In this document: piece after piece, positions 9,265-9,545 of the stretch
Numbering within the stretch: the first letter of the stretch is position 1
How the letters are laid out: each line of letters begins with the position of its first letter
Source of the DNA: a virus
IMG/VR virus record: IMGVR_UViG_3300036791_001056
Span: 32,001-96,000 of that record
Reading direction: 5' to 3' (one strand)
DNA length: 64,000 bases
Notes under the pieces: generated by a model
The model's database searches: none
Told to the model about the DNA's origin: nothing
The model's input: only the letters and a program-made list of their open reading frames with translations
Program-made: the position numbers and the translations under genes

Positions 9265-9386
9265 CGCGGGTCGAACGTCAGCCGGTTATCTTTCTGCAAA
9301 AAGGAAACAGTAGGTTCGATTCTTATCAGTCTCTTCGGAGGCTGGGTATGGCACCAGTAAACCCGGTTGCGATCATCACATCCGCG
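9265..9386 (+). ncRNA. YrlA-like Y RNA Y5, permuted tRNA domain with GCA anticodon loop
   Basis: bulged-C helix; TCTTT-CTGCAAA-AAGGA; T arm; loop-closed acceptor CAGTCTC-TTCG-GAGGCTG. Confidence 0.8.
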
Positions 9387-9409
9387 GCTGCGCCGGAGGC
9401 TTGGGTGGT

Positions 9410-9545
9410 CTGGTGGGGCGAAGTCACGTCGGTTATCTCTTTTGGGAAGAGGTAGTGCAGGTTCGATTCCTGCTCGGCCAGCTCACTGGCCGATAGTGTA
9501 ACGGCAGCACGCTAAACGTCCGGCAGGCATCATCATCTCCACCAG
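9410..9545 (+). ncRNA. YrlA-like Y RNA Y6, permuted tRNA domain with TGG anticodon loop
   Basis: TCTCT-TTTGGGA-AGAGG; T arm; TCGGCCAG/CTGGCCGA; D arm. Confidence 0.8.

What the first reader, a model, noticed from the sequence alone, without database searches (positions are those of the whole stretch)
9265..9545. Y RNAs displaying intact anticodon stem-loops (Cys GCA, Pro TGG) on an unchargeable scaffold
Seen: Y5 has TCTTT-CTGCAAA-AAGGA and Y6 has TCTCT-TTTGGGA-AGAGG. These 7-nt loops are identical to those of this phage's own tRNA-Cys (8802) and tRNA-Pro(TGG) (2333). Each is followed by a T arm, an acceptor stem sealed by a loop, and a D-like arm. Y8 has TTTAA (Lys-like) in the equivalent place. 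Known: anticodon nucleases such as PrrC and VapC cut specific tRNA anticodon loops. Inference: these are Ro60-stabilised decoy substrates for host anticodon nucleases or tRNA-modifying enzymes, a possible RNA-based anti-defence system.
Basis: partly seen in the sequence, partly recalled or inferred. Interest (0 to 1): 0.85.

Follow-up and report, generated by a model that had tools for sequence, protein, structure and literature searches.

The report
Y RNAs carrying real anticodon arms
Two of the small RNAs that partner this phage's Ro60 protein are back-to-front tRNA look-alikes that keep a true anticodon arm. The same feature turns up in about 60% of the related bacterial and phage RNAs I sampled, and I found no description of it in the papers I could read; what it does is still unknown.

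Summary
Y5 (9265-9386) and Y6 (9412-9543) are YrlA-type Y RNAs in an eight-unit array upstream of a phage Ro60 gene. Each has a 5-bp hairpin with a 7-nt loop identical to the loop of the phage's own tRNA-Cys or tRNA-Pro(TGG). A T arm, a closed 7-bp acceptor-like stem and a D arm follow.

This is not peculiar to the phage. The hairpin sits where Chen et al. 2014 drew a "V" stem-loop. Of 77 YrlA-like units from actinobacteria and their phages, 47 have it. The loop consensus is C-U-NNN-R-A and the spacing to the T arm matches tRNA.

When the hairpin stem has only 3 or 4 pairs, the missing pairs form with the bases that follow the D arm (55 of 61, with covariation). That places the hairpin as the anticodon arm in tRNA register, with the Ro60-binding stem entering through the 5' strand of that stem.

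The M. smegmatis YrlA that Chen et al. studied experimentally has the hairpin too.

The decoy or anti-defence reading is untested. The feature also occurs in bacterial chromosomes, so it is not a phage invention. "Unchargeable" is not secure either. I rate it a new variant of a known kind.

The parts
8882..8955 (+). Y1, short Y RNA with no tRNA-like domain
   Evidence: GGGTCGA motif. The terminal stem GCACGG/CTGTGC and the fold have z = -2.6.
8967..9038 (+). Y2, short Y RNA
   Evidence: GGGTCGA motif. The 5' and 3' ends are complementary, read.
9047..9126 (+). Y3, short Y RNA
   Evidence: GGGTCGA motif; fold z = -3.8.
9142..9204 (+). Y4, short Y RNA
   Evidence: GGGTCGA motif; fold z = -4.4.
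9265..9386 (+). Y5, YrlA-like Y RNA with a permuted tRNA domain whose loop reads GCA
   Evidence: Terminal stem CGCGGG/CCGCG. My covariance model R1 scores it 48.5 bits. The D arm is degenerate.
9289..9305 (+). Y5 anticodon-arm mimic TCTTT-CTGCAAA-AAGGA
   Evidence: The loop equals the tRNA-Cys loop. It lies 4 nt before the T arm.
9310..9344 (+). Y5 T arm (9310-9326) and closed 7-bp acceptor-like hairpin with a TTCG loop (9327-9344)
9412..9543 (+). Y6, YrlA-like Y RNA with a permuted tRNA domain whose loop reads TGG; the Ro motif is the variant GGGGCGA
   Evidence: Terminal stem GGTGGG/CCACC. R1 scores it 84.2 bits. The minimum-energy fold shows all four hairpins, z = -3.8.
9436..9452 (+). Y6 anticodon-arm mimic TCTCT-TTTGGGA-AGAGG
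   Evidence: The loop equals the tRNA-Pro(TGG) loop. ARAGORN reads it as an anticodon arm.
9457..9510 (+). Y6 T arm (9457-9473), closed acceptor-like stem (9474-9493), then TA and the D arm (9494-9510)
9571..9674 (+). Y7, Y RNA with a T arm and closed stem but no anticodon hairpin and no proper D arm
   Evidence: R1 gives only 19.8 bits.
9710..9858 (+). Y8, canonical YrlA with its anticodon stem formed in trans and no closed loop
   Evidence: Rfam YrlA 41.6 bits with alignment. R1 76.9 bits. Minimum-energy fold.
9882..9915 (+). Hairpin carrying a GGGTCGA motif in the Ro60 leader (not studied here)
Evidence: Motif at 9897.
9915..11594 (+). Ro60 (TROVE plus vWA_Ro60) gene
   Evidence: Pfam PF05731 at 3.8e-18 and PF25045 at 9.1e-35. 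It is 58-60% identical to Nonomuraea, Actinomadura and Streptosporangium Ro60.

Best explanation
Y5 and Y6 are YrlA-class Y RNAs, partners of the phage Ro60. Their effector domain is a complete, circularly permuted tRNA cloverleaf: T arm, acceptor stem closed by a loop, D arm, and also a genuine anticodon arm with a 5-bp stem and a 7-nt loop of the form C/U-U-NNN-R-A. The Ro60-binding stem is attached through the 5' strand of the anticodon stem, between tRNA positions 26 and 27 in Y5 and Y6 and at 27/28 or 28/29 in relatives. The anticodon loop therefore stays closed and exposed. This is the 'V stem-loop' of Chen et al. 2014, re-read. It is an old, widespread design of actinobacterial YrlAs that phages carry together with Ro60. 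Shown: the anatomy, its conservation and its covariation. Inferred: Ro60 holds the paired ends while the tRNA-shaped end, anticodon loop included, is offered to a host factor that recognises tRNA. The conserved loop frame (C32, U33, R37, A38) with a variable triplet points to a partner that reads the shape of the anticodon loop. My leading guess for the phage is competition with, or recruitment of, anticodon-loop-directed enzymes (about 25%). A purely structural or vestigial role is about equally likely.
For: Ro60 gene and Y array. The published V element begins after the conserved YUAY, which is where the hairpin starts (offset 0). Hairpin covariation: 82-86% of cells paired, covariation score 0.82-0.84 against 0.22-0.31 in shuffles, 0 of 500 shuffles as high. 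Loop profile over 47 loops: position 32 C in 39, position 33 T in 47, position 37 A/G in 47, position 38 A in 43, positions 34-36 below 0.4 bit. Positions 33 and 37 were selection criteria, so only 32 and 38 are free evidence. The phage's real tRNAs show the same profile. The distance from loop end to T stem is 9-10 nt in 45 of 47. Composite stem: 55 of 61 trans pairs form when exactly one nucleotide (position 26) is skipped after the D stem. Skipping none gives 7 of 61, skipping two gives 47 of 61, and shuffled partners give at most 50. Covarying cases include CC/GG, CG/CG, A/T and C/G. Replication in units not used to form the idea: 20 of 41 against 2.2 expected. These include chromosomal YrlAs (L033, L034, L014) and known phages Bxz1, Phabba, Trina, Boopy, BearBQ and Phredrick. 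The M. smegmatis YrlA probe gives CCA-CTTCTAA-TGG. A true tandem tRNA pair aligns to my model with its anticodon arm in this slot. Annotations in public phage records place tRNA-Thr(tgt) and tRNA-Ile genes over two such units, with matching anticodons.
Against: Hairpins were picked by a rule of at least 3 bp and a 7-nt loop, so the inner pairs are paired by construction. Units are paralogues and orthologues, not independent samples. Minimum-energy folds of the isolated segment often prefer other registers. Y5 has a weak T stem and a poor D arm, and with flanking sequence its fold z-score is only -0.86. Thirty of the 77 units lack the hairpin. The baseline for trans pairs is high (42 of 61) because position 27 is mostly C and position 43 mostly G. 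I could not read Sim & Wolin 2018 or the 2020 Annual Review, so the re-reading may already be in print.
Confidence: 0.72

Rival explanations
1. The exposed anticodon loops are Ro60-stabilised decoys or competitive substrates for host anticodon nucleases (VapC, MazF or PrrC type) or for tRNA-modifying enzymes, serving as a phage counter-defence.
For: The loop frame is that of real tRNAs and the triplets differ between copies within one genome. The array sits next to 38 phage tRNA genes, and phage tRNAs have been proposed to counter tRNA nucleases (PMC10264068). Hughes et al. 2020 suggested that YrlA might competitively inhibit an anticodon nuclease.
Against: The same arm is present in bacterial chromosomal YrlAs and in M. 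smegmatis, so it was not invented for phage counter-defence. No nuclease was tested. In Salmonella, YrlA was not cleaved by the SOS-induced anticodon nuclease, but that YrlA lacks the loop. A decoy must outcompete very abundant tRNAs. Triplets recur about as often as column frequencies predict (46 pairs against 35), which gives no sign of targeted mimicry.
Confidence: 0.2
2. A relic or brace. The arm is a leftover of the tRNA(s) from which YrlA arose, as in the dimeric-tRNA model. It is kept only because a compact U-turn hairpin stabilises the junction or protects the RNA from nucleases. Nothing reads the triplet or the loop.
For: The dimeric-tRNA origin model is cited in Wang et al. 2018. A tandem tRNA pair aligns with its anticodon arm in this slot. 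The triplet is essentially unconstrained. Thirty of the 77 units, and proteobacterial YrlAs, do without the hairpin.
Against: C32, U33, R37 and A38 stay conserved while the stems and acceptor-like stems have turned over completely. A mere brace would not need the full anticodon-loop signature or exact tRNA spacing.
Confidence: 0.3
3. A two-piece working tRNA. RNase P opens the closed acceptor stem and CCA is added, as shown for M. smegmatis YrlA. The result is a split, possibly chargeable tRNA with a real anticodon that acts in translation or on stalled ribosomes.
For: The acceptor-like stem is exactly 7 bp and fully paired in 30 of 47 units, including Y6; Y5 is also 7 bp by my own scan. M. 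smegmatis YrlA is cleaved by RNase P and receives CCA in vivo. Y6 encodes G73-C74 after the stem.
Against: There is no link between the 'anticodon' and acceptor identity elements such as N73 or G3:U70. Y5 closes with a UUCG-type tetraloop. Ro60 attached at positions 26-28 would probably hinder entry into the ribosome (inference). The phage encodes no RtcB, RNA ligase or CCA enzyme.
Confidence: 0.07
4. The published reading. The hairpin is a variable arm like that of class II tRNAs, and the stem leading to the Ro60 site is the anticodon stem.
For: Chen et al. 2014 drew it this way. TTA before the hairpin can pair with TAA after the D arm in Y6 (my reading of the sequence).
Against: Class II variable arms do not have 7-nt U33/R37 loops. 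The 4-5 nt that follow the arm fit a class I variable loop. The 27-43 and 28-42 trans pairs put the hairpin in anticodon-stem register.
Confidence: 0.08

Closest known systems
YrlA (Y RNA-like A), Rfam RF02553; Chen et al. 2014 (PMC4201824); structure in Wang et al. 2018 (10.1101/312249)
   Same: Encoded beside Ro60. It has the GNCGA motif in a stem formed by the 5' and 3' ends, the conserved YUAY, a T arm, a closed acceptor-like stem and a D arm. Window Y8 has exactly the canonical wiring.
   Different: Published YrlA is said to lack the anticodon loop, with its anticodon stem made by the two strands leading to the Ro60 site. Y5 and Y6, and 47 of the 77 units sampled, instead close that stem on itself into a full anticodon arm. 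Y5 and Y6 fall below Rfam's gathering score.
M. smegmatis YrlA (Chen et al. 2014)
   Same: Same arm: the probe sequence gives TTA-CCA-CTTCTAA-TGG-AATGGTC. It has a 7-bp acceptor-like stem and is bound by Rsr.
   Different: It is chromosomal. It is experimentally shown to be cleaved by RNase P and to receive CCA, whereas nothing is known for the phage RNAs. There the arm was labelled V.
Circularly permuted tRNA genes (Cyanidioschyzon merolae and one archaeon; cited in Wang et al. 2018)
   Same: The T-arm half precedes the D-arm half, the acceptor is initially closed, and the ends pair.
   Different: Those are spliced, circularised and matured into decoding tRNAs. No such machinery is known in bacteria and none was found in this phage. 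Here the paired ends form a Ro60 site.
Phage-encoded tRNAs as counter-defence (van den Berg et al. 2023, PMC10264068; PARIS-neutralising tRNA, PMC11464382)
   Same: They are phage RNAs with anticodon loops, set in a large tRNA cluster, in a conflict centred on anticodon loops.
   Different: Those are working tRNAs that replace or resist. The Y RNAs cannot decode as transcribed and are tied to Ro60.
Thermus phage phiLo Ro60 with Yrl1 and Yrl2 (PMC12135203)
   Same: A phage Ro60 with Y-like RNAs encoded just upstream. It was proposed to co-opt host PNPase.
   Different: In the passages I read, that paper describes no tRNA-like domain or anticodon arm for Yrl1 and Yrl2.

Membership tests
YrlA / bacterial Y RNA | Encoded next to a Ro60 (TROVE) gene | tested here: met
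   The Ro60 ORF at 9915-11594 has TROVE and vWA_Ro60 domains. The array ends 57 nt upstream of it.
YrlA / bacterial Y RNA | GNCGAA-type Ro motif near the 5' end, inside a stem formed by the 5' and 3' ends | tested here: met
   GGGTCGA in Y5 and GGGGCGA in Y6. The terminal stems covary between units.
YrlA / bacterial Y RNA | T arm, then a closed acceptor-like hairpin, then a D arm, in that order | tested here: met
   (T stem paired in 31 of 31 rows, acceptor-like stem in 27-30 of 31, D stem in 26-30 of 31). The D arm of Y5 is degenerate.
YrlA / bacterial Y RNA | Score at or above the Rfam RF02553 gathering threshold (69 bits) | tested here: not met
   Y8 scores 41.6 bits, Y6 24.4 bits, and Y5 gives no hit at E up to 10. 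The Rfam model has no position for the hairpin and misaligns it.
YrlA / bacterial Y RNA | Bound by Ro60 and expressed | not testable with these tools
tRNA | Anticodon arm: 5-bp stem and 7-nt loop with U33 and a purine at 37, followed by a 4-5 nt variable loop and the T arm | tested here: met
tRNA | Free 5' and 3' acceptor ends with the arms in the order acceptor, D, anticodon, T | tested here: not met
   The order is permuted and the acceptor is closed by a loop. The Rfam tRNA model gives Y6 22.2 bits against a threshold of 29.
tRNA | Acceptor identity elements that match the anticodon | tested here: not met
   N73 and the 3:70 pair do not follow the displayed triplet.
Phage anti-defence decoy for anticodon nucleases | Binds or is cut by, and protects against, a tRNA nuclease | not testable with these tools
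   This needs biochemistry or phage genetics.
Phage anti-defence decoy for anticodon nucleases | The feature is specific to, or enriched in, phages | tested here: not met
   It is present in chromosomal loci L014, L015, L033 and L034 and in M. smegmatis.
Circularly permuted tRNA genes | Machinery to join the paired ends and release a mature tRNA | tested here: not met
   The phage genome has no RtcB, RNA ligase or CCA-adding enzyme. Host enzymes were not examined.

The most novel reading that the evidence does not exclude
Actinobacterial and actinophage YrlAs are Ro60-tethered, complete tRNA mimics whose exposed anticodon loops are read in the cell. Phages expand the set to several 'anticodons' to tune this.
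Probability: 0.2. Interest if true: 0.85.

Novelty: new variant of a known kind. Interest (0 to 1): 0.6.

Why it matters
YrlA RNAs are described as tRNA mimics that lack an anticodon loop, and their effector is unknown. About 60% of the actinobacterial and phage YrlA-like units I sampled, including the M. smegmatis RNA studied experimentally, keep a true anticodon arm. It has an exact tRNA register, a stem built partly in cis and partly in trans, and a conserved loop frame. This changes what partners should be looked for: enzymes that read the anticodon loop, anticodon nucleases, or the ribosome's decoding site. It gives direct sequence support to a tRNA origin of Y RNAs. It also explains why tRNA finders and public phage annotations place tRNA genes over parts of these RNAs. 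For phage biology it offers a concrete, testable link between Ro60/Y RNA cassettes and the conflict over tRNA anticodon loops.

Tried and rejected
- **Close relatives in virus collections.** A scan of viral contigs with the single Ro60 protein found none. DNA similarity to known phages covered only 10% of the array, in Phabba.
- **Bacterial loci.** The one genome-contig scan returned a single locus. Only 4 of 301 sampled genomes of that class had Ro60. The Rfam YrlA model found nothing in that metagenome-assembled genome.
- **Alignment and folding limits.** MAFFT alignment of whole units puts the hairpins out of register. I therefore anchored on the loops and left the hairpin out of the covariance model. 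Minimum-energy folding of the isolated V segment is ambiguous.
- **Recent copying from the phage's tRNA-Cys and tRNA-Pro.** Rejected, because the stems and T arms are unrelated.
- **Synthetase identity elements matching the displayed triplet.** Not found.
- **Lineage-specific conservation of triplets.** Same-triplet pairs number 46 against 35 expected, and their acceptor-like strands are no more alike than those of other pairs. No claim is made.
- **Phage-encoded RNA repair or CCA enzymes.** None found.
- **Papers not held.** The 2020 Annual Review (PMC10870794) could not be read. Sim & Wolin 2018 did not turn up in the library search.

Full report
**Setting.** The window is part of a 146,953-bp virus record. 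A run of 38 tRNA genes (1014-8873) is followed by eight small units. Seven of them begin with GGGTCGA; Y6 has the variant GGGGCGA. Next comes an ORF at 9915-11594 with TROVE and vWA_Ro60 domains, that is, Ro60. Its nearest named relatives are Ro60 proteins of Nonomuraea, Actinomadura and Streptosporangium at 58-60% identity. Ro60 of known actinophages is at most 36.5% identical. In each unit the bases before the motif pair with bases after a 3' CATCC-like motif, and this terminal stem covaries between units. These are Y RNAs. Y1-Y4 are short. Y5-Y8 carry a T arm.

**The observation.**
- Y5 has TCTTT-CTGCAAA-AAGGA at 9289-9305 and Y6 has TCTCT-TTTGGGA-AGAGG at 9436-9452.
- The two 7-nt loops equal the loops of the phage's tRNA-Cys and tRNA-Pro(TGG).
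- Four nucleotides later come a T arm, a 7-bp stem closed by a short loop, TA, and a D arm. The D arm is clear in Y6 and degenerate in Y5.
- ARAGORN calls the 5' part of Y6 a tRNA-Pro(tgg). Rfam's YrlA model hits Y8 at 41.6 bits and Y6 at 24.4 bits, below its threshold of 69.
- The stems and T arms of the real tRNA-Cys and tRNA-Pro are unrelated to those of Y5 and Y6. The Y RNAs are therefore not recent copies of those tRNAs.

**What is already in print.** Chen et al. 2014 described YrlA as a tRNA mimic with T, D and closed acceptor arms. [quoted passage not shown] The Y5 and Y6 hairpins start directly after TTAT, so they are that element. Wang et al. 2018 state that YrlA "lacks the anticodon loop". 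They also cite a model in which YrlA arose from a tRNA dimer, and they note the likeness to permuted tRNA genes. Hughes et al. 2020 suggested that the tRNA-like domain might competitively inhibit an anticodon nuclease. I found no paper that describes the V element as an anticodon arm. Two reviews could not be read.

**Relatives.** I gathered Ro60 loci from four kinds of source:
- metagenomic phage contigs with Ro60 at 59-75% identity;
- IMG/VR contigs and JGI metagenomes;
- named phages Bxz1, Phabba, BearBQ, Boopy, StarPlatinum, Phredrick, A3Wally, Trina, prophiGD43A-5 and Mandalore;

I built a covariance model from 31 units using only the T, acceptor-like and D stems. It found 77 distinct YrlA-like units.

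**The hairpin is general and anticodon-like.**
- 47 of the 77 units have a hairpin of at least 3 bp with a 7-nt loop, T at loop position 2 and a purine at position 6. In the curated set it begins right after the TTA in 24 of 27 cases.
- In the curated set the count is 27 of 34 against 2.6 +/- 1.5 for shuffled segments. In units found only afterwards it is 20 of 41 against 2.2 +/- 1.45, with a maximum of 9 in 2000 shuffles.
- Two loop positions were not part of the selection rule and are still conserved: position 32 is C in 39 of 47 and position 38 is A in 43 of 47. The middle triplet carries under 0.4 bit per position and takes 23 different values. The phage's own 39 tRNAs show the same profile.
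- The stem covaries: covariation score 0.82 against 0.22 in shuffles, 0 of 500 shuffles as high, and specific to this register. The inner three pairs are paired by selection.
- The distance from loop end to T stem is 9 or 10 nt in 45 of 47. That equals a 5-bp stem plus a 4-5 nt variable loop.
- The probe and primer sequences printed for M. smegmatis YrlA give TTA-CCA-CTTCTAA-TGG-AATGGTC. The RNA studied experimentally therefore carries the arm too.

**The register test.** Many hairpins have only 3 or 4 pairs. In those, the one or two bases that follow the hairpin pair with the bases that follow the D stem after exactly one skipped nucleotide, which corresponds to tRNA position 26.
- 55 of 61 such pairs form. 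Skipping no nucleotide gives 7 of 61, and skipping two gives 47 of 61. When the partners are shuffled between units the mean is 42 and the maximum 50 in 2000 trials.
- Covarying cases include CC/GG, CG/CG, A/T, C/G and TG/CA.
- The cis and trans pairs therefore always add up to a 5-bp stem in tRNA register. The hairpin is the anticodon arm (positions 27-43), not a class II variable arm. The Ro60-binding module enters through the 5' strand of that stem at 26/27, 27/28 or 28/29.

In Y5 and Y6 all five pairs are in cis. Y8 is the other extreme and the published wiring: all five pairs are in trans (TCTGG 9745-9749 with CCAGA after the D arm) and there is no closed loop. But it is one strand of an open internal loop and has A at position 33. 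A subclass with V segment TCGGGAAC, mostly with D arm TAGCGCA, also lacks a hairpin. In the one member I read by hand its stem pairs in trans.

**Origin.** A genuine tandem pair, tRNA-Ile and tRNA-Met at 6032-6131, matches my model at 36.8 bits, with the anticodon arm of tRNA-Ile in the hairpin slot. This fits the tRNA-dimer origin model, with the arm descending from the upstream tRNA. Annotations in public records place tRNA genes over two such units with matching anticodons: tRNA-Thr(tgt) in prophiGD43A-5 and tRNA-Ile in Boopy. A tRNA-Leu in Boopy overlaps a third unit, and a tRNA pseudogene lies just upstream of Ro60 in Trina.

**Function.** Nothing here shows what the arm does. These points bear on it:
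- The arm is present in bacterial chromosomes as well as phages, so it is inherited rather than a phage invention.
- The acceptor-like stem is exactly 7 bp and fully paired in 30 of 47 units. M. smegmatis YrlA is opened by RNase P and receives CCA in vivo. "Unchargeable" is therefore not established.
- The displayed triplet does not go with matching acceptor identity elements.
- Triplets recur about as often as column frequencies predict.
- The phage encodes no RtcB, RNA ligase or CCA-adding enzyme.
- A G at position 37 occurs only after a G at position 36, as in real tRNAs. From a hand reading of the D arms, many of these loops seem to belong to one paralogue group, so this may be inheritance.

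My best reading is a Ro60-held, complete tRNA mimic that offers an anticodon loop to a tRNA-recognising partner. A decoy or competitor role for anticodon-loop enzymes is possible (about 20-25%). A structural relic is about as likely. A split working tRNA is unlikely.

**Verdict.** The V stem-loop is re-read as a true anticodon arm with a composite stem, and as far as I could check this is new. The anti-defence mechanism remains a hypothesis. Earlier notes of this scan on other DNA describe related tRNA/Y-RNA chimeras with different wiring. A note on this same stretch called Y5 and Y6 complete permuted tRNAs, and my tests support that.

Noticed in passing
window 6843-6917, 7297-7369, 7415-7487, 8199-8272: Four phage tRNAs have C instead of the near-universal U at position 33 of the anticodon loop: Glu-ctc, Asp-gtc, Val-gac and Val-cac, with loops CCCTCAA, CCGTCAA, CCGACAC and TCCACAC. 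This could be relevant to escape from tRNA nucleases.
   Followed up: no
window 8457-8537: ARAGORN's 'tRNA-Phe(aaa)' has an odd loop (GTAAATC) and a poor anticodon stem. It gets no Rfam tRNA hit at the gathering score and is probably not a working tRNA.
   Followed up: no
window 11831-12832; L003-L008 and L010 downstream of Ro60: A DUF932 gene is conserved one to four genes downstream of Ro60 in this phage and in seven of the eight closest metagenomic relatives.
   Followed up: no
L006 7804-8730; L037 (Rhodococcus phage Trina) 4645-5499: A Band-7 / stomatin-like gene lies close downstream of Ro60. This recalls the 'band-7-associated tRNA' idea of Burroughs and Aravind, as cited in Wang et al. 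2018.
   Followed up: no
L005 3804-3939, L007 3967-4104, L008 3644-3774 and 3801-3939, L010 3731-3874: An extra small hairpin with a GNRA-type loop (GGGG-AAA-CCC) sits between the D arm and the 3' strand of the Ro-proximal stem in a subset of units. Three of these units (L005, L007 and L008 3801-3939) also have unusual T loops (TGTAAGT or TGGAAGT).
   Followed up: no
L030 (Gordonia phage Boopy) 5034-5101 and 5220-5308; L038 (prophiGD43A-5) 2247-2325; L037 (Trina) 2646-2854: Annotated 'tRNA' genes in public phage records overlap units of YrlA-like Y RNAs. In two of them the annotated anticodon is the Y RNA's own arm. In Trina a tRNA pseudogene lies just upstream of Ro60, beside such units.
   Followed up: partly
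window 9882-9915: A hairpin carrying the GGGTCGA Ro motif sits immediately before the Ro60 start codon. Earlier readers proposed that it mediates autoregulation.
   Followed up: no
L007 4001-5887: The Ro60 gene call of 628 aa in this relative starts inside a YrlA-like unit (3967-4104). The start codon is probably called too far upstream.
   Followed up: no
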